64,000 nucleotides of DNA from Patescibacteria group bacterium. Its GTDB lineage: Bacteria; Patescibacteriota; Dojkabacteria; J137. A program made the position numbers and the translations under genes. Location: positions 75,569 through 139,568 of the forward strand of contig BOLA01000001.1 in NCBI GenBank assembly GCA_016861265.1, given 5' to 3'. Positions 1,431-63,525 of the stretch are shown here, one piece after another (positions within the stretch are counted from its first letter, which is position 1; the number at the start of each line of letters is the position of its first letter). The notes below the pieces were generated by a model that had not been told where the DNA came from, ran no database searches, and saw nothing but the letters and a program-made list of their open reading frames with translations.

Positions 1431-1501
1431 TCGGGGTTCGTCTAATGGTAGGACAGCAGCCTTTGAAGCTGTTGATTGGGGTTCGAGTCCCTGACCCCGA
1501 A
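1431..1501 (+). tRNA. tRNA-Gln (anticodon UUG)
   Basis: Manual cloverleaf. Acceptor TCGGGGT/ACCCCGA. D-stem GTCT/GGAC. Anticodon stem GCAGC/GCTGT with loop CTTTGAA (anticodon TTG). T-arm TGGGG-TTCGAGT-CCCTG. Discriminator A. CCA is not encoded. Confidence 0.8.
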
Positions 1502-1545
1502 GAGTCAATATAATTAAACTCTGTTTTTACTTCTATTTATATTTC

Positions 1546-40300: not shown

Positions 40301-43300
40301 CACCTGTTAATGCAAGTTTAGTAGCTGAACCTACAGCAGTAGTAATTACTGCAGAATCATTTTCCCAGCCAACGTTTATACCGCTACCATCATTATTAAC
40401 AACCGAATCATCTCTTACTACAATGGTATGAGCTCCCAAGGTGGAATCTCTATAGAAAAAGTTTTTAGAAGTAGCGTACGCTGGGATATTAGTTGTAAAT
40501 GGAGCTAAAGACCAGTTCACGCCATCGGTAGAAAATTCTCCAGTTGCCGAATCAGAGTAAAAGTATAGTGGTGTAACTGCTAGTACAGGAATACCGGTAC
40601 CATTTATATCTTGAGCTTGAACAGTAATTTCAGTAGTTCTACCATCCAATGGAATAGTTTGACTACCATTAAGAATTTTTAATTTAGCAATTGTACCTTC
40701 ATCAGGTGCCGTCACTTCTATGTTACATTGACTTCCTGTTATATCAGGATCATCAACATCAGTTGCTGTTACACAGAACTCACCTTGAGTAACCATTGTT
40801 ACACCATTTACGAATGTATGCTCACCCAACATTGAATTATCAAAAGTAAAATCAGCAGGCAATATTGTTGCAGGATCAGTAGATGTAAAATTAACTGTTC
40901 CAGTGTAATCATGCAAAGGTGTTCCGCTGTAATCAGTACTAATAACGGTTACAGAACTCGGAACACCAACTTTAATTGGCGTAGTTACTCCTGTAATAAT
41001 AAATTGAAATTTGCTTTTTACGTTAACTTGCTGTGTTGCAGGCAAACTCTCAGCAACACCTGAGTCAGCAGTAATAGTTGGAGTACCTTTTGCATTATCT
41101 TTATAGTAGAAAGTCGCAGTTGAATTTCCGGCAGGTATAGTTACAGAACTATAATCCCATCGGGTGGACTCGTTTTCTTCAAGATCAACTGCAAAAAAGC
41201 CCGAAGTACTAGACGATGAAAGATTTAATGTAACATCAGTATCTAATATTATAGGGTTACCATTAATATCTTGAGCTTGTACAGTCATTGTTCCGGGTTC
41301 AGTAGCTCTAATATTTAATGGGGCAGAAATTATTGCAAATCTATCGTAAATATATCTGTAACCATTCGTAGCAATTGCTTCCTGTCCGTCACCATTAACA
41401 ACTTTAACATCTACTGGACCACCATCACCTTCAGGTGCATCTAGTGTAATAGTTGTTGAATCTACCAGATTAATGTTGCTTGCGATTCTATTGCCAAAGT
41501 AGACATCAAGATAATTATTCGTCTGCGGAAAGTTATTGTTGTAAAGGGTATCCACATCGGGCGCAGATAAATATCTATTAAATACTCTAAAGTCATCAAT
41601 TAAACCATCGTAATAGGCCCATTTAGATATTGCAGCCCCTCTTCCTACATTAGTGTAAGCTGTACCCAAAGAGGTTACTGTCCACCAATTAAATTGAAAG
41701 TTACCGGATCTTGAACCTATTAATACGTTGTCTAAGTAAAGACTTTGTGTATTTGTTGTTCCGGTTAGCACTACGTGGTGCCATTGACCGTCGTTTACTG
41801 CTCCAGAAGTTGTTAGGTATGCAGCCGTTGCTGTATATAGCTCAGCTCGTAATTTACCATCCGCCATTATCCATAAAACAGGTACAAAGGATACTGGAAC
41901 TCCCTGGGTAGGCTGTGTATCTGCTTGCCCTAATATTCCTACACTTGTGGAAGTAGTCTTAAACCATAAAGAAAAACTGATAGTAGTATTTTGGTTAAAG
42001 TTAGTTGGAATGTTTACATACTGTGGAGTTATGCTACCTTGAAAACTTAAACATTTCTCAAACTTACAATTACTGCTTACTCTTGTTGGATCGTACTCAG
42101 TACTAGAAGTTTCTGTACCTAAATGAGCATTTACACCAAAGGGTATAGAATTTTGCACATTCTGTCCGCTGGATTCATCAAACTTAAAGTGCGAGTTAAG
42201 TCCATCTCTAAATGGAATAGTATTTGCTATATTATAATTTTGTTGAATTTCGCCAAGATTCAATGCTTTGTTATAAAGCATTACTTCATCTATTACACCA
42301 TTAAAGTATTGCTGATTTCCTGTACTTCCTCCAGAAGGTCTTCCTATTTCAAATGCAGCCGGATTTACAAATATAGGACCTGCAAAGGCTAATGTATTAG
42401 CATCTAATACCCCATTAATATACATTCTAATTAACGAACCATCCCAGGTAAAGGCAACATTGCTCCATTGATTAACACTTAGTGTTGTATCAGAAACTAA
42501 ATTTATATACGAATTTCCGCCCACACTACTAATATCAACTCTCAATTTACCTTGTGGGGTTGTTGATAACTGATACGAATAGTTTGTTGTCCATGGAAAC
42601 TTACCTGCAATGACCATGTAATTAGTAAAGTTAGCAGGTTTAATCCATGCTTGCATAGAAATAGCATTTGGCGGATTTAGAACTGCACTCGAAGGTACAG
42701 AAATATAACCGGTTCCATTAAAGCTTCTTCCATTGCTAATATAACCAGTTGTATCGCTAACACCACCGCCTGCTGTACCGTTAAAATTATTACCACTCTT
42801 GTCGGTAATTGTTGAACCCGTATCGCTATTCATTGGCCAATACCCAACTAATCCATCGGTTACATATATAAAGGAATTTTTAGCCCTAAAGTTTTGACCT
42901 GTTATTGTAACTTCATTACCCCCTACTGTTGGTCCTCCTAAAGGATCAATATTCGTAATGACAGGAGCAGATTCAGAATAAATAACTGCATTTTCTAATG
43001 TTACCTGTGTCCCATCCGGATTAATTATCTGCACACTTACTTCACCTATTTCGTGTGCAGGTGCTACCGCCTGAATTGTATTTGAATCTATAAACGCTAC
43101 AGAGGTTGCATCAATTCCATCGAATTTAACACTTGGAGTTTCTCTAAAATCTGTTCCTGTAATTGTTAATGTTGTACCACCACCAAAGTATGGTCTATTA
43201 GGGTTTATGTCGGTTATTGTCGGAGCTGCTAAGTAAGTGTATGAACTTGGCAGTACATGGCTTTCGCCGTCTGGAGTAATAATTGTAATATCTTTTGTTC

Positions 43301-46300
43301 CAGAAGTACTTGCGGCAGTTGTAGCAATAATAGTTTCGGAATCAATCCATTCAACATTGGCGGCGCGTTCCTCTCCAAAAAATACCTGAATAGGCTGAGC
43401 AGTAATAACTGCTTTACCCGGCTGTCCGTTTGTACTTGCCGCACCTCCCGCACCCGCTCCAGAATTATCAGGATCCGATGCATTCGCCTGAGTAATATAA
43501 TTAGCTCCAATTGAGATTGGATTTATTAGGGCTGGATAACCAATATATCCTGAACCTCCTCCTCCTCCTCCCATTGTATTAGCTTCCTGATAGGCACCTC
43601 CACCTCCACCGTACCATCCACCTCCTCCAGATCCACCGTAGGAATAATAAACATTACCACCTGTATATTTGGAACCGGCAGTACCATTTCCACTACCGGT
43701 ACCCCCAGCACCACCAGCAGACTGAGTTCCTCCTCTTCCTCTGGCAAGTGGTAATTCCATAGAAAGTCCATCTTGCCCTGTTACACCGCCTGCGCCTCCT
43801 CCGGCTTGAGATAGTACATTCGATCTACTGCTTCCACCTCCGCCTCCACCTCCAGCAGTTAGAATATCTTCTCCGCTCAATCTTATTGCTGATCTACCTC
43901 CACCTTGTCCCCCATAGACACATCCATTAGTACAGTTATTGCCTGCCCCACCATAAAAGTTTAATGATGGAGAAACTCCTCCTCTAACTCCTCCCGCACC
44001 TACCATGACTGCAAGTTCTTGGTAATTATTTACGGGAAGCATTGCTGTGGTATATCCACCGCCACCACCTTGGTACCCATAAGTCCATCCGCCTGGTACA
44101 CCACCACCACCGCCGCCGCCCCATAGTTTTACATTAACACTGTCAACTCCTTCTGTTGCAACAAATTTCTGATCTTTGGCAAGGTAATCGTATGTTGTTT
44201 TATATAGGTAAGGTAGTAAATCAGAACCAGAAATTGTGACTTGGGTGCCTCCATCACTTGTACCCTCTGTTGGCAAGGCTGATTCCACTGATGCACCGGT
44301 ATATGTAAATGCGGATTCTAATGTATAAGTAATACCAGCTGAAATGATTTCAATATCTTTAGTTCCGGAGGAATTTCTTGGGGTTACTGCTTTTATAGTG
44401 TTTGAATCTAAATAAGTTACTTCTTTTGCATATTCACCACCGATTTTTACAGTAATAGGGTTTGTAATTATTACGACTCTACCTGATTTACCGCCCTCAA
44501 CGGCATTTCCACCTCTTCCGGCGGTATCGTTATAAGCATCAGTTGATTTCGGTTGTGTTTGCCCTGCTCCTGCTATTGTGGAACCAACAATAACTGAAGG
44601 GTCTGTTATATAACTCGAACCACCGCCACCACCGCCCATGGCCGTACTACCTTGATGAGCACCCGAACCACCTCCGTACCATCCACCTCCACCGCCTCCT
44701 CCATACGAATTTTGTAAAGGTGAACCTGCATTGTACTTGGAACCGTTACCTCCGGAAGAACCATCACCAATACCACCCGCTCCTCCGCTAATTTGACCTC
44801 CTCCAATTCCTCTTATTGGTGCATAAGCAGCCGATGAGCCATTTTCTCCTAGTAATCCTCCACCTGCACCTCCGGCCTGTGAGTTTGTATTCTGATAAGT
44901 AGTGCCTCCAGCACCACCTCCTCCTGCAGTTAATATATCTTCCCCATTTAGCCTTATTGCTGATCTTCCTCCACCTTGACCTCCATATCTACAGTCAGTA
45001 TTTACACAAGAAGCACCTCCGCCTCCATAACTTAAACCTCCTACTGCCATATTTCCACTATGCCCACCGCCACCCACCATAACTATTAACTGTTGTCCAG
45101 GGGTAACTGCAAGATCCGCTTCAGTGTATCCACCTGCTCCTCCAGGGTAACCATACGACCAACCCCCTGGATTTCCTCCGCCTCCACCTGCTCCCCACAT
45201 CTTTACTTTTATCGATGTAACTCCTTCTGGGACAGTAAATGTCTGGTCCACACCTGAATACGAAAATTCTGAAACTTTAGGAGTTGCAAAATTTTCACCT
45301 TCAATTGTAATTTCGGTACCACCAATTGTACTTCCGTTGTTAGGAGTAACAGAATCTGCCGTAACTGATTCGTAGGTATAAGCGTCTTCTAGTATATCTA
45401 CTGTTCCATCAGGATTAGTTATTGCAACATCTACCGTACCTACTGCATACTCTGGTGTTTCTGCCGTAATTGTATTTTTATCAATATAACGTACATTTTT
45501 TGCCTCAACCCCACCCACCGTTACCTTTAGAGTCAATGCAGATATAACTACCTTGCCTGGTTGACCAGCAACCCCTGCAGCACCTCCTGCACCTGCTCCA
45601 CTGTTATCATAGTCCGATGGGTTTGCCTGTAATGATAGTTTTCCTTGTAATGCAATAGGATTTACCAAGTTAGAATAACCAATATAACTAGATCCACCGC
45701 CGCCACCTCCCATGGTATTTGGCTCTAAAAAACCTCCTGTAGAACCTCCGTACCATCCACCGCCACCAGAACCTGCATATGTAGTCTGGGTATTGTGGCT
45801 ACCACCATTATATTTTGTTCCTGCAACTCCTGCAGTACTTGCGGCACCTCCCGCAACTTGAGTTCCTCCATTACCTGCATAGGTTGGCATATCCTCAGCA
45901 AGTCCCCTTTGACCAATTAACCCTCCACCCGCTCCACCGTTTTGTCTATTTATAATAGATCTACTAGAACCGCCTCCCCCACCTCCTCCAGCTGTTAGAA
46001 TATCTTCTCCATTTATTCTTATTGCTGACCGTCCCCCTCCTTGTCCTCCAAATACACAGTTCGTACTTTGTTGATTTGGGACACAGTTGGCTCCTCCCCC
46101 TCCGTAAGCTACATATTTCATCTTACTTACGCCATTTCCACCACCTGCACCAACAACTACATTTAAAATATCGCCTGGGTTTACACTTATATCACTTTCG
46201 GTGTATCCACCACCTCCTCCAGGATAACCATAGCTCCAACTTCCCGGATTTCCTCCTCCTCCTCCAGCACCCCACATTTTTACCCTAATTGAAGTCACAC

Positions 46301-49300
46301 CATCAGGAACTATAAAATATTGATCTGAGTTTGTTAGATTGTATGTTGTGGTTAATATACTTTTGCTGAAATCTTCTCCCGATATGGTTATTGTATCTCC
46401 ACCCGAAGTTGAACCACTCACAGGACTAATCGAAGTTATTGTTGGGCCAGTAAAGGTATATGCATCTTCAAGAATACTACTTTCACCATCTCCATTCCTA
46501 ACTGTAACATCCACGGTGCCAACTGCATGTGCAGGTGTTGTAGCAATTATTGTCGTTGAATTAATAAATCTTATATTCTTTGCAGGCACATCCCCAAATA
46601 GAACTGTATTTATTGAGGCTTCCACTATAACCCGTCCATTCTGTCCTGCAACTGAAGCCGTTCCTCCTGCACCAGCACCATTATTTAGTGTGTCTGCTGC
46701 ATTAGCTTGAGTCCTACCCTGACCTGACTTAGTTACTCCATTAGAAACACCTGGACCACCTATATAACTAGATCCACCTCCGCCACCGCCCATATAAATA
46801 TTTGTGTATGCTCCTCCTCCTCCTCCGTAATATCCACCGCCACCAGAACCGCCATAGGAATACGGTGTATTTGGTCTTCCACCCAAATATTTAATTCCCG
46901 CGGTTGCCCCAACGTTACTACCAGAACCTGCAGCACCACCTGCCACCTGTGTTCCGCCTTTTCCTGCATGTGCGTTATTCGAAGCTGAAATTCCACTAAC
47001 TCCAGTTAGGCCTCCACCTGCTCCTCCTGTAGCATCTGCATTACTATTATTCGTTGAACCTCCTCCTCCTCCTCCTCCTGTTACTATATCTTCGGTGCCA
47101 ATTTTAATTGCAGACCTTCCTCCACCTTGCCCTCCATATTGGCAGTCCGTTCCCCCGCAATTTGGTCCTCCACCTCCGTAGTTATACGCTTGATTACCTA
47201 CTAATCCGCTATTACCTCCCTGTCCAACAACTACAACCAGTAATTGCCCTGGAGTCACTGCAATATCTGCTTCAGTAAAACCTCCTCCTCCTCCCGGAAA
47301 TCCAAAGTGCCAACTTCCTTTATTTCCTCCACCTCCACCGGCACCCCACATTTTTACCCTTACGGATGTCACACCTTCGGGAACTATATAAGCCTGATCA
47401 GATCCTGTATATTCAAAAATTGTTGTTTTTACACTATCATCAAAGTTTAATCCTGTGATTGTTACATCTTCGCCACCCATTGAAGATCCCGATGTACTAG
47501 ACAGAGATTGTACCTGAGGAGCTAGGTATGTATAAGCATTCGATAGTATTGCTTCTTGCCCGTCTGGATTAGTTACTATTACATCGTATGTTCCGGCAAG
47601 ATGACCAGGAATTGTAGCTGTAATTGTATTAGAGTCTATAACTCTTACATTCCTGGCAACAACTCCACCTACCGTTACCATTTTAGGGAGTACATCAATA
47701 ATTACTTTACCAGGTGTACCGGCTGTGGAAACATTACCACCAAGACCTGCACCCCCATTGTCTAAATCGTAGCTTCTTGCCTGGGTTCTATTCACGGCAC
47801 CAACCATTAATCCATTTGTAATTCCTTGTGTTCCTACGTAACCTGAACCTCCACCACCTCCGCCCATATAAGTACCTGTATAGGCTCCACCGCCGCCGCC
47901 GTAGTATCCCCCTCCACCTGATCCACCATAAGAATATGGGCTATTCGGTCTACCTCCTAAATATTTTTGACCAGCGGTTGCACCAACCTGACTACCAGAC
48001 CCTGCGGCTCCCCCTGCAGCTTGAGTTCCTCCCTTTCCTGCATATGCAGAATTGGCTTGTGCAACGCCATCTTCACCTACTACGCCACCACCGCCGCCTC
48101 CATATTCAAATGAACTTGTTCCATTAGTTGAACCTCCTCCACCTCCTCCGCCTGCGGTCAAAACATCATCTCCACTGTATCTTATTGCAGACCTTCCTCC
48201 ACCTTGCCCTCCATACTTACAGTCTGTTCCACCGCAGTTTGGTCCTCCACCTCCATAGTTATAGTTAGTGTTACCTGTAGTACCAGCATTTCCTCCAGCA
48301 CCAACCATAACAGTTAAAACTTGGCCTGGCACAACAGACATATCTGCTTCAGTGTATCCTCCTCCACCTCCCTGATATCCGAATGACCAACCTCCTTTAT
48401 GTCCACCTCCTCCACCTCCTCCCCACATTCTTACCTTAATTTTATTAACTCCATCAGGAACAGTATATGTCTGATCTGCACCAGTATAAGTATATGTTTT
48501 TGTACCTCCATTTGTATCAAAATTAGATCCATAAATAGTTATGTCTGTCTCGCCTATACTTGGACCAGAAGTTGATGAAATAGAACTAATACTTGGCGAA
48601 GTCGATGAAAAGTAATTTATAGATACCGAGTCTAGTTCAACTTGCTGACTTGAATTGTCAGCGTGTAAGAACGCCTTAAACTTCAATTTTCCTGTACCAA
48701 TTTCAGATGGAAAACTCGAAATATTACTATTAACTTCAGCAGCAGAATTTGATTCCTCGTAGCCTGCGGAAGTGAGCGTCCAGTTACTGCCGTTCCACCA
48801 GTACCATACCTCAGAGGTTTTGTTCTGCTCTGTACCGAACTCAACAGAAGGCTCTATTCCAGATGTTTTTCTTGCTAGTACAAAGTCAATGTATGTATCT
48901 GTTGTATTAGTTGTTCCTGCTAAAGAACCTGTAAAATACCCCAAGATTAGGTATGGTGCAAAATCACCCGGGGAGTTATATGTATTGGTTACATTTCTAT
49001 TCTGATAATATTTTAGTGCTGTTGGTGTAACCCCGAAGCCGCTAACAACATATGTATTTGCTGTAGGAGTGAATTGAAATCCATCATTAATAATATCATA
49101 ACTTGCTACCGACCCAGTGGCAGCACCCCCGATTTGATTAATACTGGTATTGTTTGTTACTAATAATACTAACCTATTCGAATTAGCATTACTGCCTGCT
49201 ACGCTATTGGTATTAGAAGTGGTTATTCCAGAATAAGCTGTTTGAGATGCCGCCCATTTTGCCCTCATTTCGAATGCAACATTAAGATTTGAACTTAATA

Positions 49301-50621
49301 TTGGAGCAGTGGAATAAACTGAACCGGTTTGTATAAACAATTCTCCATTAGAAACCGAAGTGCTTCCAGTGGCTGTCCAAATAGAAGTATTTAAAGGTGC
49401 AGCGTTAAATCCATCGAAAAATAAGAATACACTATTTGAATCCTGTAAGTCCGTTGCCGATGAATTACCGTAGTAAACGTAAACAGAAGTTCCCGCCGTT
49501 GTTACAGATGGTATTTTAGTCCAAATGTATGTTGAAGTTGTGTTACAACCATTTGTTCCAGTCTCAATCCAATACGGTAAAACAATGTTGTTGTCTGTTG
49601 TAACTCGAATATCTTGACATGCAGATTGTAATTTACCGGCCGAAATTAATGCAGCAGTATTAACTGTAAGTTTTACTTGATAGTCGGTTAAGGTTGTATC
49701 GTTTGATATTACACCCAATTCCTGTCTATAGTTCCATGATTGGTTGTACCAGTTACTAAAATTGTTGCTTAATTGATATCTTATGTTTCCCTGGTTGTTA
49801 GCACCCAAGGTCTCGCTAAACCCTGACAATGTAGTGTATACAACGCCTTTATTTATTACGTAAGGATTATCTGTTGCATAACTTCCTGAGTTGTTAACAA
49901 GTTTTACAACCCCATCTACAATTTCAATTTTTGACGGATCAGAAAGAATAAAGTCTTTTGTTGTAGAAAACACCCAAGAAACTGTAGGGTCAATTACTAC
50001 TGGATATTCTACATTCGTAAATTCGCTGGCATTTGCCGGAATTAATTTAATATTATTTTGTTCAATATTATATTTATAGTTTATTTTTTTTGAATTCTTA
50101 TCTTGAGCAACTGGCGGGTATATATAGTAAGCTAACTTATTATTTTCAAGAATTTTTATTCCGCCTTCATCTGTAGTTTCAAGTGTAAAGTTACTATTTA
50201 TACTAAATTCAAATTCTCTAGGTGAACTTGAGCTATTCAAAATAATATCCTCTTTTACATAATCCTTAAATGTTTGATAAATTATTGAGTAATCCTGGTC
50301 ATTATTGGTAAGTGTAAGATTATTTTCATTAAGTTGTTGTTCAAAATTACTGCCTGTTCTAATAGCAAAATTCAAAGAAGTATTTGTAGGAGTATCAATT
50401 TCTACAATTGGCAAAAAGTCTTCGTTTGGTTGTAGAGTTTTAGGGAATTTTACAACTGCGTTATTTGTTTCCGAAAGGTAAACTTCTGATTCCTCTTTTA
50501 TATTATTTGGGGTTGAATCTAAATCATCTAATGAAATATAGGAATTCTCAAAATCTACTGACTCTGTTTTTCTTTTTACATTAGAAAGTAGTAATACAGA
50601 TGCAACAACGAATGTTAACAA
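31365..50621 (-). CDS. Giant (6418 aa) secreted/surface protein: IPT/TIG domains, Gly-rich modules, LamG domains, dozens of Ig-like repeats, C-terminal FN3-like domains
   Basis: Single ORF with N-terminal signal/TM ([15 protein letters not shown]). Five IPT/TIG + Gly-rich modules (MWGxGGGGG..GGWS(F/Y)[10 protein letters not shown] ... [10 protein letters not shown] ... IPT: V.A.NVR.ID.NTI.A.TP....GT.DV...NPDG). Extra IPT domains. Two LamG domains (LVGYWPMN..., ...WHHVVLTG). About 40 Ig-like ~105-aa repeats. FN3-like C-terminus. Confidence 0.85.
43000..48450 (-). repeat. Intragenic tandem repeat in the 6418-aa gene: five copies, period ~1083 bp (~361 aa; Gly-rich module plus IPT/TIG)
   Basis: The MWG(G/A)GGGGG start of the Gly-rich block recurs five times. 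Residue count between successive KVRMWG...VRVKMWG is 361. Antisense poly-Pro pseudo-ORFs (e.g. 48052-48258) mirror the poly-Gly coding. Confidence 0.75.
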
Positions 50622-51516: not shown

Positions 51517-51855
51517 TTATTTTTTAACCTTAGGTGGTTTTGCTGCCGCAACATCAGCCGCCATATTTACCCAGCTCGCTAGATCTTCATCGCTAGCTGC
51601 GCTTGGATTTTCAACAATAACCATTCCTTTCATTGGCTTTTCGCCCATCATCATTGGTTTCATTCCTGGCATAGATAATGCCTTTTCATAGTTTTCTCCA
51701 CCAACACTTAATGTAAAACCTCTACTATTAATGCTGCAAACCATATTGCCATTAATTCCAAAGTTTAATCCTCCAAATAAATTTCGCTCTTCTACACCTT
51801 GTCTTGAACTTAAAACAGATCTAACTCTGCTTGCTAAAGATTCATCGTAAGCCAT
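51517..51855 (-). CDS. TfoX N-terminal domain protein
   Basis: MAYDESLASRVRSVLSSRQGVEERNLFGGLNFGINGNMVCSI...MPGMKPMMMGEKPMKGMVIVENP matches the TfoX_N family consensus (MAYDE.LAERIR..L....V.EKKMFGGLAFMVNGNM..G...). Confidence 0.6.
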   Translation of the reverse strand: MAYDESLASRVRSVLSSRQGVEERNLFGGLNFGINGNMVCSINSRGFTLSVGGENYEKALSMPGMKPMMMGEKPMKGMVIVENPSAASDEDLASWVNMAADVAAAKPPKVKK

Positions 51856-51962
51856 AATGAATGAATAATAAATATGTAAATATTCTAGTATTTTGGCAGA
51901 GAATTATTGCTAATGCAATAACTAATTATCAAATACTTAGCTGTACTATTGTCTATAGTGTA

Positions 51963-52376
51963 TTATGCTTTCTTTTGTAAAATGTTCACCATCCAATTAA
52001 TGCCAAATTTGTCTACTACCATTCCAAATGTATCTCCCCAAGGAGCCTGCATTAAAGGTTGGGAAATATTTCCGCCTACACTTAGTTTTTCCCAGTAGCT
52101 TCTTAATACTTCTTCATCTTCTCCACTTAAAGAAAGACTAATTCCGGCTGGTACATCGTAAGGTCCCATGTTAGATGGAGAATCTGCCACCATTAAAGTC
52201 ATATTAGAGGTAGTTAATTGACCGTGCATTAACCAATCTTCTTCTTCTGCTGCAACAGGAACGCCGCTTTCCTTGAAAGTATTTGCTGTAACTTCGCCGC
52301 CGAATACGCCTCTATAGAATTCTAGTGCTTCTCGAGCGTTTCCCTTTAAATGAAGATATGGATTAAAAGTAACCAT
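51963..52376 (-). CDS. VOC-family (glyoxalase/bleomycin-resistance fold) PhnB-like protein
   Basis: MVTFNPYLHLKGNAREALEFYRGVFGGEV...APWGDTFGMVVDKFGINWMVN is the typical PhnB/3-demethylubiquinone methyltransferase-like VOC signature. Confidence 0.65.
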   Translation of the reverse strand: MVTFNPYLHLKGNAREALEFYRGVFGGEVTANTFKESGVPVAAEEEDWLMHGQLTTSNMTLMVADSPSNMGPYDVPAGISLSLSGEDEEVLRSYWEKLSVGGNISQPLMQAPWGDTFGMVVDKFGINWMVNILQKKA

Positions 52377-58339: not shown

Positions 58340-59587
58340 ATGGATTTATTTACTAATCCCTACATAATTAATAATCTTTCTATTGTACTGGGCTTTACAC
58401 TTGTTTCCTTTATAATCGCATTCTTACTAACCCCACTAATGGGTAAGCTTGCTATTAGAGTGGGGGCAGTGGACTTACCTGCATGGCTAAGAAACAAAGG
58501 TGAACGTGGGATTGTAACTAGAATACATGATTATGTTTATCCTAAGTTGGGCGGATTGGCAGTTCTTGCAGCAATACTGATTTCTCTTTTTATTAACAGA
58601 GATTTAGTAAATGTGGGCAAGGGCGTAGTTATTGGCATGATAATAATAGGAATTACAGGTTTTCTTGATGATAAATTTGAACTAAATAGTAAATTTCAAC
58701 TTTTAGGACAAGTCTTGGCAGCCGCAGTAGTTGTTGCTTCAGGAATAAGCATAACATCAATAAATTTCCTTTCGATGCAAATGAATTTTGATGCATTCTC
58801 AACCATTATTCGATTTGCAGGCTTTACATACAATTTTATTTTTCCAGCAGATATATTAACAATTTTATGGATTGTGGGTTTAATTAATGTGATTAACTGG
58901 GTTGGTGGGGTTGACGCATTGAATGGCTCTGTTACCAGTGTTGCATTATTTACCCTAATGTTAATAAATTTAGCAAATGGTAATGTTGCCTTGGCAGGAC
59001 TAATTGCGATTCATTTGGGTGCGGTATTAGGGGTACTGCCATTTAACTATCCTCCCGGAAAGATTATGTATGGGTCTGCAGGTGACTTTTTAAATGGATT
59101 TTTATTAGCAGTTTTTGCAATCTTGGGTAGTACAAAATGGACAGCATCAATGATTATTCTTGCTATGCCAATACTAGATGGAATTATTGTTATATATATG
59201 AGATTCAAGTCAAACCCTCACCTATTAAAGAGTCCTCTTAAAATACTACAGGTTAGTGATAAGAATCATTTGCATCATAGATTGCTGGACGCGGGCTACT
59301 CTAAAAAAACTGTTACCTTAATCGAAACATCTATGATGATTGTAGTATGCTCTATAGCCTTAATACTTAGCAACCTAAGAACAGATGCTCTAGCATTTAT
59401 ACTGGGAATTGCATTCCTGTTTGTAAGTTTCTCAATTATATATGTATTAAAGAAACGAGGACAGAGAAAAAACAGGGCAGATGAAATTCTTGAAGAAATT
59501 AAAGCTTCTGAACTTCCTGAAGAAAAGGAGATAGTAATTAATACTGTTTACGAAAACGAAAAGGAAGACGAAAAATACAGATATTAG
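58340..59587 (+). CDS. Glycosyltransferase family 4 polyprenyl-phosphate HexNAc-1-phosphate transferase (WecA/TagO/MraY superfamily)
   Basis: Multi-TM. DD..E Mg-site (GFLDDKFEL). N..N..GG.DAL.G (NVINWVGGVDALNG). YGSAGDFLNG (like the VFMGD.GS motif). HLHH motif. Acidic C-terminal tail. Confidence 0.8.
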   Translation: MDLFTNPYIINNLSIVLGFTLVSFIIAFLLTPLMGKLAIRVGAVDLPAWLRNKGERGIVTRIHDYVYPKLGGLAVLAAILISLFINRDLVNVGKGVVIGMIIIGITGFLDDKFELNSKFQLLGQVLAAAVVVASGISITSINFLSMQMNFDAFSTIIRFAGFTYNFIFPADILTILWIVGLINVINWVGGVDALNGSVTSVALFTLMLINLANGNVALAGLIAIHLGAVLGVLPFNYPPGKIMYGSAGDFLNGFLLAVFAILGSTKWTASMIILAMPILDGIIVIYMRFKSNPHLLKSPLKILQVSDKNHLHHRLLDAGYSKKTVTLIETSMMIVVCSIALILSNLRTDALAFILGIAFLFVSFSIIYVLKKRGQRKNRADEILEEIKASELPEEKEIVINTVYENEKEDEKYRY

Positions 59588-59696
59588 TTTAACCAATATC
59601 TTTTCTACAACAGATATCACAGCTATTGCATTGTCATTCAAAAATGCTATCATTCGGAGCAGTAACTTAGGGAATTTTGAATGAAAGGTTCGTATC

Positions 59697-59918
59697 ATGA
59701 TAACCGTTATAACCACCTGCCAAGCACCGATTTATGTCTTCAACCCGGTGGGTAAGACGTACTCAAAGAAGGGTGCGTGCTTCAAGTCGGAAGGGGCAAC
59801 CGTAAAGGTGAAGCGGGTGGAAAATAACGCAGGGTTCCTGCGAATCTGCGAAGATAGTGGAAAGGAAACTAACAACTACCTTCGTACGCAGGACGTGGCA
59901 GAAGCTGCGACTGCATAA
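59697..59918 (+). CDS. Small protein A1 (73 aa) of a paralogous cassette family; C-terminus ..DVAEAATA
   Basis: Own promoter (TTGCAT-16-TATCAT), SD plus conserved GGTTCG spacer, G/C-rich codons. Terminator-like hairpin at 59926-59958. Confidence 0.5.
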   Translation: MITVITTCQAPIYVFNPVGKTYSKKGACFKSEGATVKVKRVENNAGFLRICEDSGKETNNYLRTQDVAEAATA

Positions 59919-60033
59919 AACAGACAGGAGCTGAGGCCAACAAACAACCCCAGCTCCTGATCAATCTTCATTATTGTATCTCATATATATTGTTGCTATA
60001 ATTAAATGTCAAAGAACTCTAAGGAGGTTCGCA

Positions 60034-60243
60034 ATGCGTTTCGCTAATGTAGTCGTAAACGGTGGTGCGAAAGCACTAGACGAAGAGGGAAAACCCACTG
60101 GGGTGATTATCCCCTTCGGGAGTTGCGGAGACTTGATCGATGAATTCACAATTCAAGGCACACTCTACGCTTTGGTGGAATTCGAGGATACCGTAGCCGT
60201 AATCGAACAGGAAGATCTGTGGATTTCGGACGCAGCAGCCTGA
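60034..60243 (+). CDS. Small protein B1 (69 aa from the internal Met); N-terminus MRFANVVVNGG, C-terminus ..WISDAAA
   Basis: Strong SD AAGGAGG plus GGTTCG spacer. Promoter TTGTAT-17-TATAAT. Terminator GCGGCATCA...TGATGCCGC at 60264-60287. The longest ORF starts at 59974 but lacks an RBS. Confidence 0.5.
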   Translation: MRFANVVVNGGAKALDEEGKPTGVIIPFGSCGDLIDEFTIQGTLYALVEFEDTVAVIEQEDLWISDAAA

Positions 60244-60348
60244 TCATCCCGACCTCTTAGGTTGCGGCATCAAATTACTGATGCCGCACTCATTTCTAAA
60301 ATAATTCTTCTAATATATAATTAATCGTATAACTAGCCTGGAGGAAGA

Positions 60349-60567
60349 ATGAACACAACCAGAGTTGTAGTTTCAAACCCTAAAGGTGCGCAAGTTTACA
60401 GCCAACAGGGCAACTGTTTAATTCCGATTCCTGATAATATTCTGGAAAAGGGAACTCAGATAGTTGTTGGCGATGAACACGCAAGCGATAAACGGTACAT
60501 ACAGTATGAACGTCCGTACGCTGCAGATGCCATTGAGGATCTCTATGTTCTTGTTAGCGATCTTTGA
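60349..60567 (+). CDS. Small protein B2 (72 aa); N-terminus MNTTRVVVSNPKG, C-terminus ..YVLVSDL
   Basis: SD GGAGGAAG. -10 TATAAT upstream. Terminator AGCGCGAGC...GCTCGCGCT at 60573-60623. Confidence 0.5.
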   Translation: MNTTRVVVSNPKGAQVYSQQGNCLIPIPDNILEKGTQIVVGDEHASDKRYIQYERPYAADAIEDLYVLVSDL

Positions 60568-60720
60568 TCGGCATAAGCGCGAGCAAAGGGCGACTATTTT
60601 AATGTAGCAACCCAAGCTCGCGCTTAACTTTCTAAAATTCACATAATCTATACAAATGTTGCTATGTTATGTCAACATTGATATAATTACAATATCATCG
60701 ATCCCTAAGGAGATGTCAAA

Positions 60721-60942
60721 ATGAGTAAGACAGCTGGCTCGGACTTAAGCATGATTAGCACTTATTATTTTGATCGGGATTTAAGAATGTTTTTACCTGC
60801 GGGAAAGAAACATGACTTAGATCGCAATTCCATCAAAATTGATGAGAAAGCGCAGGTGCCTCGAGACCGGGCGGGATTGAGTTTTAAGAAGGTGAAAGGC
60901 AAGAACCTGTACATTGCTGCTAGCGAACTGGCTACAGCATAG
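60721..60942 (+). CDS. Small protein A2 (73 aa); C-terminus ..AASELATA
   Basis: SD AAGGAG plus ATGTCAAAATG. Promoter with TGTCAAcattgaTATAAT. Terminator AGGCGCC...GGCGCCT at 60959-60985. Confidence 0.5.
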   Translation: MSKTAGSDLSMISTYYFDRDLRMFLPAGKKHDLDRNSIKIDEKAQVPRDRAGLSFKKVKGKNLYIAASELATA

Positions 60943-61061
60943 GGTTATTGCCCGACCGAGGCGCCACACCAACGGCGCCTTTCCTATGCTCCCAATTGTT
61001 GCCACTTGTCAATAACAGTGATATAATGGATATGTCAAACAATTATATTTGAGGTGTCAAA

Positions 61062-61358
61062 ATGAAGTACCGAGTAGTTGGAATTCCAAGCACGGCAACA
61101 CCGGACGATCCTTCGATCTTTGAACGGCTAGGTTATGAGAATCCCGTCATAGGACATCTCGCCGTTTTCGAAGGAGAGGTTGTGGAGGTGCCAAAGCTGC
61201 CCAAGGTTTTCCTTCCACCCAATACGATTGTTGAAGGCGAAGTCAATGGACGCTATCTTGAACTCAGTACCATTGACGGTGAACCCGTTAAGGTATCAGC
61301 CAACCTCTACGTTGAGGTTGCGGGTCTTGAACAGGTCAGCGACATCGCCGCCGCCTAA
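61062..61358 (+). CDS. Small protein B3 (98 aa); N-terminus MKYRVVGIP, C-terminus ..QVSDIAAA
   Basis: SD GAGG plus GTGTCAAAATG. Promoter TTGCCA-17-TATAAT. Terminator GACAGT...ACTGTC plus T-run at 61381-61404. Confidence 0.5.
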   Translation: MKYRVVGIPSTATPDDPSIFERLGYENPVIGHLAVFEGEVVEVPKLPKVFLPPNTIVEGEVNGRYLELSTIDGEPVKVSANLYVEVAGLEQVSDIAAA

Positions 61359-61721
61359 TGAGCTTAACAGCTCGTACAAGGACAGTCCTAGCACTGTCCT
61401 TTTGCTTTCTTATAAATATATATCCATGATAAAATCCATAGCCGTAAGTCTAATAGGGGAATAGGTTATGCAGGCAACGGTTCCGGGAAATGTTCATCTG
61501 TATTACTGAAATCCCAGTACGGGCTTCCAATGTTCTGACATTATCATTCCTGAAGGTCTGGTGTTGTCAGTAGAAGAACCCAAGATGAAAGATGAGTACT
61601 CAAACGACTTCTTTTGTTTTGGGACAGCACAAATTCCGGGTACAAATCGTACGCAAGCATATGCACTTAAAGCAGACCTTGTTCTGCTGCCGGTGCAATC
61701 ATAAATCCTCTTAAAGAGGTC

Positions 61722-61749
61722 AAGGTCGACAGTTTGTCGACCTTTTGCA
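61722..61749 (+). terminator. Intrinsic terminator (AAGGTCGACA-gttt-TGTCGACCTT plus TTTT) closing an ORF-poor ~300-nt unit
   Basis: Perfect 10-bp stem followed by a T-run. Upstream is only a 39-codon ORF (61585-61704). Confidence 0.5.
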
Positions 61750-61805
61750 TTCCTATTAACCATGCTAACATTTTGAATCTGTTATATTAATCGAAAGGTA
61801 ATACT

Positions 61806-62054
61806 ATGCAGATTAATTTAGTTGTAGATGAGTCGGACCATCTACAAGCATATCCCATTGACGACGAAAGTAATCAAATTGCAGATGCAATTGAGCTACC
61901 TCCTGGAATTTACCGAGGAACTGAAATAAGTCTTGGTGAATTTAATGAAGGTTTAAAATCTGGAATAGCAGTTAGTCATATAATTGAATATAACGGACAA
62001 AGACTTGCTGTTCAGATCGCCGCCTTTGAAGATGATGATATGCTTTTTGGCTAA
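61806..62054 (+). CDS. Hypothetical small acidic protein (82 aa), host-like AT-rich codon usage
   Basis: ATG with AAAGG SD. Followed by a strong bidirectional terminator (AAGGCGAGCCGC-at-GCGGCTCGCCTT at 62059-62084). Confidence 0.45.
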   Translation: MQINLVVDESDHLQAYPIDDESNQIADAIELPPGIYRGTEISLGEFNEGLKSGIAVSHIIEYNGQRLAVQIAAFEDDDMLFG

Positions 62055-62106
62055 AGAAAAGGCGAGCCGCATGCGGCTCGCCTTAAGTTATTTCATCAAT
62101 AAAGTA

Positions 62107-63525
62107 TTACTTTAATACATCAGATACCCTTACAACCTCGAATATATTTGGAATGTATCCAGCCTGTTCAGATGGACTCTTACCAATCACTAATACTTTA
62201 GTACTTTCCTTTACAACTCCTAATTCTAAGGCCTCACTTACAATTTCCTTAATTGCCGCATCTCTATCTGCTGCAATGTTTTTATACACAAATGCTCTAT
62301 TCACTCCTTTACTCAAAGCCAACTGTCTTTGAAAGGAATCGCTGCTAACAAATGCATAAATAGGTTGTTTTATTCTATGTCTTCCTAACAATCTTGCAGT
62401 TGTACCACTTCTCGATGCCACCAATACAACTTCAACTTCATAGTTTTCAATCATGTTAATTGCCATCTCAGCAGCTGCCTTTGTAAGGGCGTCTGTTACC
62501 ACTGCAGATTTAGCTCTAGTTTTCATTACGCGTGGCTCCACGTATTTTTCAATTTCTAATGCTATCTTAGATAATTCTTTTACTGCTTCTACTGGGTATT
62601 TTCCTGCAGAACTTTCTCCCGATAACATTACTGAGTCTGTACCCATTAATACGGCCATGGCTACATCATTTACTTCTGCTCTTGTTGGTCTTGGGTTATT
62701 AATCATAGACTCCAACATTTGTGTTGCTGTGATTACAGGTTTTCCTAATGCATTACATTTTTCTATTAAAAGTTTTTCTACCATCGGTACTTTTTCTAAT
62801 CCTAATTCAACTCCTAAACCACCTCTTGCAATCATTACTCCATCAACAACTTCAAGGATTTCGTCAATGTTTTCTACTCCCATTCCGTCCTCAATTTTTG
62901 CAATCAGCCTCATGGAAGAGCCTTCAAGATATTTCTTTATTTCCTTTGCAGATTCAGCATTTTGTACAAAAGATGCAGAAACAAAGTCCCAACCTAATTT
63001 TATGGAATGATTTAAGTTAATAATATCCTTCTCTGTTAGAGCACTGGTTGCAAAATCTGCACCCGGTAGATTTAATGCTTTACCTGGTTTTAGGTATTCT
63101 CCAAAGACTACTTCACAATGCATTTTGTCTTCAACAATTTCTTTTATTACTAATTCAGTATCTCCATCTCCAATTACTACTCTTTGTCCGGGTTTTAGAA
63201 CTTTATATAGGTCCTTATAGTTTCCTGGATAAATTTCTGTATCAGGTCCGTTACCTATAATAATCTGGTCACCAGGTTTAATGCTTTTGGTCTCTGCAAA
63301 TTTATTCATTCTAACCTCAGGACCTTTTACATCCATCATTAATGCCACTCCGCTCGAAACATCTCTTACCAATTTTGTAACCTTGTCTAATTCAGCTTCA
63401 TCAGCAAAAGCCCCGTTTACTCTAGCTACATTCATTCCAGCTTCTATCATTGATTTCATAACCTCAGGATCCCAGCTAGATGGTCCTATTGTACAAACAA
63501 TCTTAGTCTTTTTAGAAAAGTCCAT
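62107..63525 (-). CDS. pyk: Pyruvate kinase
   Basis: Pyk N-terminus MDFSKKTKIVCTIGPSS. MDVKGPEVR-like motif (MMDVKGPEVRM). ..ATQMLESM.. motif. C-terminal allosteric domain. Confidence 0.9.
   Translation of the reverse strand: MDFSKKTKIVCTIGPSSWDPEVMKSMIEAGMNVARVNGAFADEAELDKVTKLVRDVSSGVALMMDVKGPEVRMNKFAETKSIKPGDQIIIGNGPDTEIYPGNYKDLYKVLKPGQRVVIGDGDTELVIKEIVEDKMHCEVVFGEYLKPGKALNLPGADFATSALTEKDIINLNHSIKLGWDFVSASFVQNAESAKEIKKYLEGSSMRLIAKIEDGMGVENIDEILEVVDGVMIARGGLGVELGLEKVPMVEKLLIEKCNALGKPVITATQMLESMINNPRPTRAEVNDVAMAVLMGTDSVMLSGESSAGKYPVEAVKELSKIALEIEKYVEPRVMKTRAKSAVVTDALTKAAAEMAINMIENYEVEVVLVASRSGTTARLLGRHRIKQPIYAFVSSDSFQRQLALSKGVNRAFVYKNIAADRDAAIKEIVSEALELGVVKESTKVLVIGKSPSEQAGYIPNIFEVVRVSDVLK

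What the first reader, a model, noticed from the sequence alone, without database searches (positions are those of the whole stretch)
59690..61410. Compositionally foreign island carrying an array of five paralogous small-protein cassettes, each a complete transcription unit
Five 69-98-aa ORFs sit in tandem on the + strand. Each has its own sigma70-like promoter, a strong SD, and a perfect intrinsic-terminator hairpin directly after the stop.

The coding parts use G/C-ending codons (e.g. GGC GAA GTC AAT GGA CGC ... GCC GCC GCC TAA) in an otherwise AT-rich genome. The signals (promoters and terminator loops) stay AT-rich.

The proteins fall into two types:
- Type A (59697 and 60721) ends in ..AEAATA or ..SELATA.
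- Type B (60034, 60349, 61062) begins M-x-x-x-R-V-V-(V/G) and ends ..SDAAA, ..VSDL or ..SDIAAA.

The 5'-UTRs also pair up. GGTTCG follows the SD in genes 1-2, and (G/A)TGTCAAAATG in genes 4-5. The layout A-B-B'-A-B looks like a duplicated two-gene A-B module.

No homolog or domain is recognizable to me. The architecture (independent strong expression units, tiny proteins, conserved termini) is what one sees for phage-derived modules, toxin or immunity peptides, or structural shell proteins, but none of those fit well. This is the best candidate in the window for an undescribed system.
Basis: seen in the sequence. Interest (0 to 1): 0.85.

Follow-up and report, generated by a model that had tools for sequence, protein, structure and literature searches.

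The report
Hotspot of foreign-codon mini-gene cassettes
Between two housekeeping genes of a tiny-genome (CPR, Dojkabacteria-like) bacterium sit seven self-contained mini-genes (one recently broken) that use a foreign codon dialect and encode real, orphan small proteins, at least one probably an SH3b-like beta-barrel; the locus is real and unusual, but what the proteins do is unknown.

Summary
The array has seven cassettes (59,626-62,084), not five. g6 carries a TGG->TGA stop in this strain and g7 has host-like codons. Each cassette has a promoter-like site, an SD, an ORF of 69-98 codons and a stable hairpin.

GC3 is 0.36-0.58 in g1-g6, against 0.216 +/- 0.054 in host windows. Arg codons switch from AGA to CGN.

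The ORFs are true genes: between-strain substitutions fall mainly at third codon positions and dN/dS is 0.08-0.39. -10 boxes, SDs and hairpin stems are conserved.

Sequence statistics do not support "paralogous" or "duplicated A-B module". Real shared features are the charge classes and an Ala-rich C-terminal tail in g1, g2, g4 and g5.

Relatives carry different cassette sets at the same GT4|pyruvate-kinase junction (two, one, or an unrelated gene), all with raised GC3. This is a lineage-restricted hotspot of moron-like cassettes outside any prophage.

Function is inferred only: stand-alone binder or inhibitor proteins in some conflict or interaction role.

The parts
59626..59962 (+). Cassette g1 (type A, basic, pI 8.9). 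Promoter-like TTGCAT(59626)-16-TGcTATCAT(59648); weak SD GAAAGG; ORF 59697-59918 (73 aa, GC3 0.58, ends AEAATA); hairpin 59923-59962.
   Evidence: (hairpin -19.4 kcal/mol, z -5.5). dN/dS 0.20 against L088. NCBI is not among the sources listed for this protein, so it is probably not annotated in the NCBI record.
59974..60288 (+). Cassette g2 (type B, acidic, pI 4.05). TTGTAT(59974)-17-TGcTATAAT(59997); SD AAGGAGG; ORF 60034-60243 (69 aa, GC3 0.50, ends SDAAA); hairpin 60263-60288.
   Evidence: z -5.6; dN/dS 0.05-0.14.
60293..60626 (+). Cassette g3 (acidic, pI 4.6). TATAAT at 60316 with a weak -35; SD GGAGGA; ORF 60349-60567 (72 aa, GC3 0.36); long-looped hairpin 60574-60626. This is the only cassette with detectable distant homologs and a usable structure model (SH3b-like beta-barrel).
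60659..60981 (+). Cassette g4 (type A, basic, pI 9.7). TTGCTA(60659)-17-TGaTATAAT(60682); SD AAGGAG; leader ATGTCAAA; ORF 60721-60942 (73 aa, GC3 0.47, ends SELATA); hairpin 60958-60981.
   Evidence: 10/12 promoter match with TG; z -2.5; weak homolog L090-c, E 1e-3; dN/dS 0-0.39.
60999..61405 (+). Cassette g5 (type B, acidic, pI 4.4). TTGCCA(60999)-17-TGaTATAAT(61022); SD GAGG; leaders ATGTCAAA and GTGTCAAA; ORF 61062-61358 (98 aa, GC3 0.49, ends SDIAAA, or SDIAA in other strains); hairpin 61374-61405.
   Evidence: 11/12 promoter match; only 99% and 88% relatives among 5.8 billion proteins; z -5.1; dS 0.74, dN/dS 0.11 against L088; compensatory T.A->C.G change in the stem. The AF2 model is unusable (pLDDT 33.6).
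61407..61744 (+). Cassette g6 (acidic). TTCTTA(61407)-17-TGaTAAAAT(61430); SD AGGGGA; 78-codon frame 61468-61704 interrupted by TGA at codon 14 (61507-61509; TGG in other strains); hairpin 61722-61744. A recently inactivated copy in this strain.
   Evidence: intact 77-78-aa gene in L003, L007, L088, L089; stop shared by the window, L004 and L006; z -5.1; dN/dS 0.08-0.10 among strains.
61744..62084 (+). Cassette g7 (very acidic, pI 4.05). Promoter-like TTTGCA(61744)-16-TGcTAACAT(61766); SD AAAGGT; ORF 61806-62054 (82 aa, GC3 0.20, host-like); hairpin 62059-62084, which also serves as the terminator of the convergent pyruvate kinase gene.
   Evidence: hairpin scored on both strands; z -5.2; 27-codon in-frame deletion in L003, L088, L089.
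58340..59587 (+). Conserved left flank: glycosyltransferase family 4 (MraY/WecA-type) gene. It marks the left edge of the hotspot in all relatives.
   Evidence: PF00953; dN/dS 0.00.
62107..63525 (-). Conserved right flank: pyruvate kinase gene, convergent with the array. It is the first gene of a glycolysis cluster.
   Evidence: PF00224, PF02887, followed by enolase, LDH, DeoC, TIM, GAPDH, PGK; dN/dS 0.02.

Best explanation
WHAT IT IS (shown). The gap between the glycosyltransferase-4 gene and the pyruvate kinase gene of this AT-rich, probably Dojkabacteria-related CPR bacterium is a lineage-restricted hotspot. It accumulates autonomous mini-gene cassettes, each consisting of a promoter-like site, an SD, an ORF of about 70-100 codons and a terminator hairpin.

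This strain has seven cassettes. Six use a codon dialect foreign to the host, one of those six (g6) has a fresh nonsense mutation, and one (g7) is compositionally native. They encode real, soluble, cytoplasmic-looking orphan proteins under moderate purifying selection. The g3 family most likely folds as an SH3b-like small beta-barrel.

HOW THE LOCUS BEHAVES (inferred from comparisons). Cassettes are gained, swapped by recombination between strains, and lost by nonsense mutation, in-frame deletion and collapse to an empty promoter-terminator shell. Relatives therefore carry different sets at the same junction. The architecture is that of phage 'morons' (own promoter, own terminator, deviant composition), but it sits on the chromosome with no prophage, integrase or attC sites.

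The raised GC3 persists across lineages. That fits repeated import from an external gene pool of about 50% GC (a phage, another mobile element or a partner organism) better than a single old transfer.

WHAT THE PROTEINS DO (inference, low confidence). Each is an independently and probably strongly expressed stand-alone binding module. It would act stoichiometrically on another macromolecule as an inhibitor, decoy or immunity-type protein in a conflict or partner-interaction role. The cassettes do not look like components of one multi-part machine. The Ala-rich C-terminal tail of g1, g2, g4 and g5 may be a proteolysis signal.
For: Coding and selected:
- Substitutions by codon position 1/2/3 are 22/12/71 (L003), 3/7/34 (L007) and 1/1/15 (L004).
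- dN/dS is 0.08-0.39 for cassettes and 0.00-0.02 for the flanking genes.

Signals:
- All seven cassettes end in a hairpin.
- Promoter-like sites lie at a near-constant distance from the ATG.
- -10 boxes, SDs and hairpin stems are invariant among strains, and the g5 terminator shows a compensatory pair.

Foreign dialect:
- GC3 z-scores are +2.6 to +6.8.
- Arg is 74% AGA in the host and 87% CGN in the cassettes.

Orphans.

Hotspot and turnover:
- L008/L091-96: one unrelated cassette plus ORF-less GC-richer DNA.
- L099: two cassettes with GC3 0.54 and 0.47 in a host at 0.19-0.22, one of them a g3 homolog, plus a collapsed cassette.
- L100: a 23S-rRNA-IVP gene instead.
- L090: a diverged orthologous piece of the array with a conserved terminator and promoter.
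- g6 nonsense mutation and g7 deletion.
- Mosaic dS, 0.02 to 0.74.

No mobile-element hallmarks.

Ala tail: 4 of 7 cassettes against 0 of 26 host proteins.

Moron definition: PMC3594210.
Against: - The function is not evidenced by any homology or context. Neighbours are housekeeping genes.
- The SH3b call rests on one moderate model. The five models range from pLDDT 45 to 73, and the alignment included presumed paralogs that I chose. No Foldseek E-value is significant. No usable model exists for any other cassette: the g5 model was unusable and no other cassette was modelled.
- SH3b domains normally work outside the cell, yet these proteins show no export signal.
- No donor pool was found, whether phage, plasmid or metagenome.
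- Expression was not measured. Promoters are consensus matches only, and the regional count of promoter-like sites is at chance level.
- Ancient in-situ duplication followed by very fast divergence cannot be excluded. The best non-member hits of the g3 profile are all cassette proteins.
- Selection, rather than re-import, could maintain the high GC3.
Confidence: 0.6

Rival explanations
1. In-situ paralog family. One ancestral small gene, or an A-B pair, was duplicated in tandem and the copies diverged beyond recognition. The array would be a family expansion, not an accumulation of imports.
For: - Similar sizes, a shared N-terminal h-h-x-(N/D)-P-x-G-x-x-Y element and a C-terminal (N/D)-L-Y-V...S-D motif.
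- The g4 and g5 promoters and leaders are alike at the same spacing.
- The g5 and g6 terminator tails are alike.
- The top five non-member hits of the g3-family profile, out of about 455 candidates, are all cassette proteins.
Against: - No pairwise or profile E-value is significant.
- hhalign of A against B gives 0.1% probability.
- GC3 ranges from 0.20 to 0.58 within the array.
- Relatives hold unrelated cassettes at the same site.
- The layout is A-B-B-A-B-B-B.
Confidence: 0.18
2. Remnant of a degraded prophage or other mobile element. The cassettes are morons or accessory genes left behind after the element's core genes were deleted.
For: - Moron-like architecture and deviant composition (PMC3594210).
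- Signs of decay.
- Collapsed cassettes in relatives.
Against: - No phage, integrase or transposase gene within 10 kb on either side.
- No att-like or long repeats.
- No DNA or protein match in 50,697 phage records or in IMG/VR.
- The same junction is occupied in at least four lineages with different content, which fits a hotspot better than one insertion.
- The cassettes are under purifying selection.
Confidence: 0.12
3. Toxin-antitoxin-like or effector-immunity pairs. The basic type A proteins would be small toxins or nucleic-acid binders, and the acidic type B proteins would be their labile neutralisers.
For: - Clean basic/acidic split in this window.
- Strain-variable arrays of small genes are typical of immunity islands (own knowledge).
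Against: - Each gene has its own promoter and terminator, so there is no co-transcription.
- The ratio is 2 A to 5 B.
- The tails occur on both A and B proteins.
- The g3 homolog in L099 is basic.
- No match in Pfam, NCBIfam or PADLOC.
- No toxin gene or toxin fragment lies at the locus.
Confidence: 0.07
4. The GC-rich segments are structured non-coding RNA genes, or chance ORFs, in an AT-rich genome.
For: - GC-rich islands with their own promoter and terminator in AT-rich genomes are a classic ncRNA signature (own knowledge).
- There are no protein homologs.
Against: - Third-position bias of substitutions and dN/dS well below 1.
- An SD and ATG at fixed distance after each promoter.
- The stop codon lies just before each hairpin.
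- No Rfam match at E <= 1.
- g3 homologs are conserved at the protein level at about 40% identity.
Confidence: 0.02

Closest known systems
Phage 'morons' (autonomous accessory transcription units in phage and prophage genomes; PMC3594210)
   Same: One small gene with its own promoter and terminator. GC content differs from the neighbours. Present in some genomes and absent at the same position in close relatives.
   Different: Not inside a phage or prophage, since the flanks are GT4 and pyruvate kinase. Seven lie in a row. No phage homologs. The site is reused in several lineages.
Bacterial SH3b domains (wall- or teichoic-acid-binding modules of endolysins, lysostaphin, NlpC/P60 hydrolases and S-layer proteins)
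   Different: No sequence match to any SH3 family model. The protein is stand-alone rather than fused to an enzyme or surface protein. It has no signal peptide and is acidic. Only g3 has a usable model (the g5 model failed).
Integron cassette arrays and CALINs
   Same: A row of small, same-strand, mostly unknown ORFs of heterogeneous composition that differs between relatives.
   Different: No attC sites (no R''/R' core pairs; hairpins are 24-49 nt). No IntI. Every cassette has its own promoter and terminator, whereas integron cassettes are normally promoterless.
Orphan immunity-gene arrays of polymorphic toxin systems and acquired interbacterial defence clusters
   Same: Strain-variable arrays of small cytoplasmic proteins with deviant composition. 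This is a plausible functional analogue.
   Different: No toxin gene, toxin fragment or recombinase at the locus. No match to known immunity families. No functional evidence.

Membership tests
Bacterial SH3b domain superfamily | Small 5-7-stranded beta-barrel superimposable on solved SH3b domains | tested here: met
Bacterial SH3b domain superfamily | Significant match to an SH3-clan sequence model (for example Pfam SH3_3, SH3_4, SH3_5) | tested here: not met
   No SH3-clan Pfam hit even at E <= 10 for g1-g7, or at E <= 1 for the L099 and L090 cassettes. There is no PDB sequence hit with the profile.
Bacterial SH3b domain superfamily | Acts as an exported targeting module, fused to a catalytic or surface protein or carrying an export signal | tested here: not met
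   Stand-alone ORFs of 69-98 aa. No hydrophobic N-terminal or membrane segment: at most 12 of 18 hydrophobic residues in any window.
Bacterial SH3b domain superfamily | Binds peptidoglycan or teichoic acid | not testable with these tools
   Needs binding assays.
Phage morons | Own promoter and own terminator around a single gene | tested here: met
   In silico only. Hairpins, promoter-like sites, conservation of the signals among strains.
Phage morons | Nucleotide composition differs from the surrounding genes | tested here: met
   GC3 is 0.36-0.58 against a host value of 0.216 +/- 0.054 for g1-g6. g7 does not differ.
Phage morons | Located within a phage or prophage genome | tested here: not met
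   The flanks are housekeeping genes: NusA, YlxR and GT4 on one side, the pyruvate kinase and glycolysis cluster on the other. No phage matches.
Integron cassette array / CALIN | attC recombination site (R''...R' cores, 57-141 nt) after each cassette | tested here: not met
   No RYYYAAC...GTTRRRY pair in any spacer. Spacers share no conserved boundary element. Hairpins are 24-49 nt.
Integron cassette array / CALIN | IntI integrase and Pc promoter next to the array, with promoterless cassettes | tested here: not met
   No recombinase among the called genes within 10 kb. Each cassette has its own promoter-like site.
Type II toxin-antitoxin modules | Two genes co-transcribed as one operon | tested here: not met
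   A terminator hairpin and a new promoter-like site lie between every pair of genes.
Type II toxin-antitoxin modules | Match to a known toxin or antitoxin family | tested here: not met
   Pfam, NCBIfam and PADLOC return no toxin or antitoxin family, and no match reaches a curated cut-off.
Orphan immunity-gene arrays (polymorphic toxin systems / AID clusters) | Match to known immunity families, or an adjacent toxin gene or toxin C-terminal fragments | tested here: not met
   No family hits. Only the small cassettes lie between GT4 and PK.
Orphan immunity-gene arrays (polymorphic toxin systems / AID clusters) | Strain-variable row of small same-strand genes of deviant composition | tested here: met
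Orphan immunity-gene arrays (polymorphic toxin systems / AID clusters) | Protects against a cognate toxin | not testable with these tools
   Needs experiments.

The most novel reading that the evidence does not exclude
The GT4|pyk junction could be an integrase-independent 'cassette rack' of CPR bacteria. In this reading, a chromosomal site uses reusable host-type promoter and terminator scaffolds and homologous recombination (perhaps after natural DNA uptake) to keep sampling small binder proteins from an external gene pool of about 50% GC, such as phages or the partner organism. The site would maintain them as a diversified, individually expressed immunity or anti-effector repertoire. An encoded Ala-tail degron would set the turnover of the newest imports.
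Probability: 0.1. Interest if true: 0.8.

Novelty: new variant of a known kind. Interest (0 to 1): 0.45.

Why it matters
CPR/Patescibacteria have tiny genomes of about 1.1 Mb, and it is poorly understood how they defend themselves or deal with their hosts. In this genome, 2.5 kb is spent on seven separately expressed orphan mini-proteins. They keep a foreign codon dialect and turn over between close relatives at one fixed chromosomal junction.

If the cassettes are imported binders or immunity proteins, the locus would be a compact, tractable example of how reduced genomes keep a flexible accessory repertoire without integrases or prophages. It would also add a family of stand-alone SH3b-like proteins.

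If they prove to be merely fast-evolving native small proteins, the locus is still a clean test case. It shows that orphan small ORFs can be validated from population data alone.

Tried and rejected
- Family libraries for all cassettes: Pfam, PHROGs, NCBIfam and PADLOC gave only sub-threshold chance matches (g1: OB_RRP5_4th at E 0.09; g5: a PHROG transglycosylase at E 0.067).
- Rfam at E <= 1: nothing.
- Word-indexed search of 5.8 billion proteins for g5, g7 and the g3 profile: only near-identical strain variants plus P0038.
- Exhaustive HMMER search for g3: one true distant homolog (P0038). Two BspA-type LRR proteins matched only a 25-residue motif in repeats and were rejected as spurious.
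- GTDB genomes, IMG/VR and JGI metagenomes with g5 or the g3 profile: nothing.
- blastn of the island against phages and plasmids: nothing.
- tblastn of g1, g2, g4 and g5 against phages: only an E = 0.4 hit for g1. It falls at the end of a DNA polymerase gene of Xanthomonas phage XAJ24 and was rejected.
- AF2 of g5 with three sequences: pLDDT 33.6, unusable.
- The afdb50 fold library was unavailable.
- A PDB sequence search with the type B profile gave only chance hits.
- Remnants of g1-g7 in the L008 gap: none.
- attC cores: none.
- Long direct repeats or conserved cassette boundaries: none.
- tmRNA in the window, to compare its tag with the Ala tails: not present.
- Literature look-ups for sample accessions (habitat) and for comparable arrays: nothing useful.
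- TGA recoding as an explanation for the g6 stop (considered): rejected. ORFs of 4,672 and 6,418 codons are open under table 11, and other strains have TGG at that codon.
- Translational selection as the cause of high GC3 (considered): rejected. Pyruvate kinase has GC3 0.24 here, and PK and enolase have 0.19 in L099. The Arg codon family also switches from AGA to CGN.
Full report
OBSERVATION

Two more same-strand units follow:
- g6 (61468-61704) is a 78-codon frame with one in-frame TGA.
- g7 (61806-62054) encodes 82 aa.

The array fills the whole 2,519-bp gap between a glycosyltransferase-4 gene (58340-59587) and the convergent pyruvate kinase gene (62107-63525).

Every unit ends in a stable hairpin (-18.9 to -26.4 kcal/mol; z -2.5 to -5.6 against dinucleotide shuffles). 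The last hairpin doubles as the terminator of pyruvate kinase.

Every unit has a promoter-like site scoring 8-11 of 12, and six of seven have a TGn extended -10. The -10 ends 27-34 nt before the ATG in six units and 43 nt in g1. Only the g4 and g5 promoters pass the generic scan, and the region's total count of promoter-like sites is at chance level. The promoters are therefore plausible, not proven.

COMPOSITION

The window is 36% GC. Host genes have GC3 of 0.19-0.29. Host windows of 73 codons give mean 0.216, sd 0.054 and maximum 0.425 (n = 1,693).

GC3 by cassette:
- g1 0.58, g2 0.50, g4 0.47, g5 0.49: these exceed every host window.
- g3 0.36 and g6 0.39: within the top 1% of host windows.
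- g7 0.20: host-like.

The codon dialect differs qualitatively. Arg is 74% AGA in the host and 87% CGN in the cassettes. Leu is 45% TTA in the host and 44% CTG/CTC in the cassettes. Spacers stay at 33-44% GC.

Other GC-rich patches in the window lie inside the giant genes and come from codon position 2, that is, from amino-acid composition.

ARE THEY GENES?

Yes. Eight Logan assembly contigs from other sequencing runs carry all or part of the same array at 92-100% identity.
- Substitutions by codon position 1/2/3 are 22/12/71, 3/7/34 and 1/1/15 in three comparisons.
- dN/dS is 0.08-0.39 for the cassettes and 0.00-0.02 for the flanking genes.
- In the spacers, the -10 boxes, SD sequences and hairpin stems are unchanged among strains, and changes fall in loops.
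- The g5 terminator carries a compensatory T.A->C.G double change.
- Rfam finds nothing.

The non-coding RNA reading is rejected.

DECAY AND EXCHANGE

- The g6 stop is a TGG->TGA change shared by the window, L004 and L006. Four other contigs keep an intact gene of 77-78 aa.
- g7 has a 27-codon in-frame deletion in another clade.
- g5 ends in AAA or AA depending on the strain.
- dS along the array is mosaic in a single strain pair (g3 0.02, g5 0.74, flanks 0.11-0.32). This indicates recombination with diverged alleles.

ARE THEY PARALOGS?

Not demonstrably.
- All pairwise BLASTP E-values exceed 1.
- Profiles of the g3 group and the g4 group do not retrieve the other cassettes significantly.
- hhalign of the A alignment against the B alignment gives 0.1% probability.

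There is a hint of distant kinship. The five best non-member hits of the three-member g3 profile, out of about 455 candidates, are all cassette proteins. Short N- and C-terminal motifs also recur.

Real shared properties are:
- The charge split in this window. g1 and g4 have pI 8.9-9.7. g2, g3, g5, g6 and g7 have pI 4.05-4.6.
- An Ala-rich C-terminal tail in g1, g2, g4 and g5, the four units with the highest GC3. No host protein out of 26 has at least two Ala in its last four residues. I estimate a binomial probability of about 2.5e-5.

The g4 and g5 promoters and leaders resemble each other, and ATGTCAAA recurs in three leaders. Spacers otherwise share only generic promoter features. The real layout is A-B-B-A-B-B-B.

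WHAT ARE THE PROTEINS?

They are orphans.
- Pfam, PHROGs, NCBIfam and PADLOC give nothing.
- Every cassette protein sits in an unnamed cluster of 3-6 sequences.
- g5 and g7 have only strain variants among 5.8 billion proteins.
- An exhaustive HMMER search for g3 found one true distant homolog, P0038 (75 aa, 42% identity).
- No signal peptide or membrane segment is present.

AlphaFold2 failed for g5 (pLDDT 33.6). For g3 it gave a moderate model using a six-sequence alignment (pLDDT 73.4, pTM 0.58; the five models range from 45 to 73). The model is all-beta with seven strands.

I take 'SH3b-like small beta-barrel' as the likely fold of the g3 family only.

THE LOCUS IN RELATIVES

The host is probably a Dojkabacteria-related CPR bacterium. 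Its pyruvate kinase is 69% identical to that of a Ca. Dojkabacteria MAG and 81% identical to a MAG labelled Bacteroidota, which is probably mis-binned. The source genome is a 1.11-Mb NCBI contig.

At the same GT4|PK junction:
- L008/L091-96 (GT4 87% identical) hold one unrelated 67-aa cassette with its own promoter, SD and terminator. They also hold about 300 bp of GC-richer ORF-less DNA and an empty promoter-terminator shell.
- L099 (GT4 81%) holds two cassettes with GC3 0.54 and 0.47, in a host at 0.19-0.22. One is a g3 homolog (E 1.6e-6), but it is basic. A collapsed cassette lies between them.
- L100 (GT4 68%) holds a 23S-rRNA-intervening-sequence-protein gene instead.
- L009 and L101 have no array.

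A 1-kb contig, L090, carries a diverged piece of the array: an acidic protein, then the g3 homolog, then a weak g4 homolog. Its g3 terminator and the following promoter are 71% identical at DNA level to those of the window, although the proteins share only 42% identity.

The junction is thus a long-lived, narrow-clade hotspot with cassette turnover. High GC3 persists in the g3 family across three lineages. A single old transfer would not leave that pattern.

WHAT IT IS NOT

- No integrase, transposase or phage gene lies within 10 kb.
- There are no attC cores.
- There are no long repeats or conserved cassette boundaries.
- There is no DNA or protein match in 50,697 phage records, 72,556 plasmids or IMG/VR.

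INTERPRETATION

The architecture matches the definition of phage morons: own promoter and terminator, and a GC content unlike the neighbours (PMC3594210). Here, however, the units sit in a chromosomal hotspot and form a row of seven.

My best reading is a site that accumulates and exchanges autonomous small-protein cassettes drawn from an external pool of about 50% GC. The proteins would be independently expressed stand-alone binders. Their role (inhibitor, decoy or immunity-type) is inference only. The Ala tail resembles known C-terminal degrons (my own knowledge, untested).

Rival readings are an ancient in-situ paralog expansion, the relic of a degraded mobile element, and toxin-antitoxin-like pairs. 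All are less well supported but not all excluded.

VERDICT

This is a real, carefully verifiable and unusual locus of orphan genes. It is a new variant of known kinds (moron-like cassettes, SH3b-like fold, flexible hotspot). It is not a demonstrated new system.

Noticed in passing
window 2507-16525 (-), 25752-30257 (-), 31365-50621 (-): Three very large ORFs of 4,672, 1,501 and 6,418 aa fill most of the window. The largest contains repeated Gly-rich modules (GGGGGG...YGGGG) alternating with Ig-like-looking segments. These modules account for the window's other GC-rich patches through codon position 2.
   Followed up: partly
window 61507-61509: The TGA inside g6 is TGG (Trp) in L003, L007, L088 and L089. 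The stop is shared by the window, L004 and L006, so it marks a recent clade-specific inactivation. A GTG or ATG further down the same frame (61561 or later) could still give a truncated product.
   Followed up: yes
L008 approx. 1490-1560 (- strand); L099 approx. 7700-7850: These look like 'empty' cassettes. A good promoter-like site is followed almost at once by a terminator hairpin (L008), or by an SD, a very short ORF and a terminator (L099). They appear to be collapsed remains of former cassettes.
   Followed up: partly
L100 5588-5938: In a more distant relative (GT4 68% identical), the same GT4|PK junction holds a 23S rRNA-intervening-sequence protein gene (PF05635, E 5e-40; bAvd-like four-helix bundle). 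A second copy of this family lies in L101 at 10697-11062.
   Followed up: partly
L004 7843-8166; L091 9210-10029; L099 11078-11371: A second variable spot lies between enolase and lactate dehydrogenase. The window's lineage has one 107-aa gene with no Pfam hit on record, the L008 lineage has two (125 and 113 aa, likewise without a Pfam hit on record), and L099 has a 97-aa ORF (from an ORF listing only, not scanned against Pfam).
   Followed up: no
window 60006, 60713, 61032 (and GTGTCAAA at 61054): ATGTCAAA occurs five times in the 64-kb window, which is the chance level overall. Three of the five copies lie on the + strand in cassette leaders between the -10 box and the ATG. This could be shared ancestry of the leaders or a regulator site.
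   Followed up: partly
window 62107-63525 against L007 and L088: Divergence of the flanking pyruvate kinase is also mosaic between strains: dS 0.62 against L007, 0.11 against L088 and 0 against L004. Recombination is therefore not confined to the cassettes.
   Followed up: no
g3 residues 11-38; P0039, P0040: The g3 segment KGAQVYSQQGNCLIPIPDNILEKG resembles a motif (SGNTVYRSEGNCLIQISDNKLIQG) repeated in BspA-type leucine-rich-repeat surface proteins. I judged it a repeat-inflated chance match.
   Followed up: partly
window 51517-52376 (-): Two small genes of 112 and 137 aa lie in a patch of about 0.39-0.40 GC upstream of the finding. They were not examined, and they might be other compositional outliers.
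   Followed up: no
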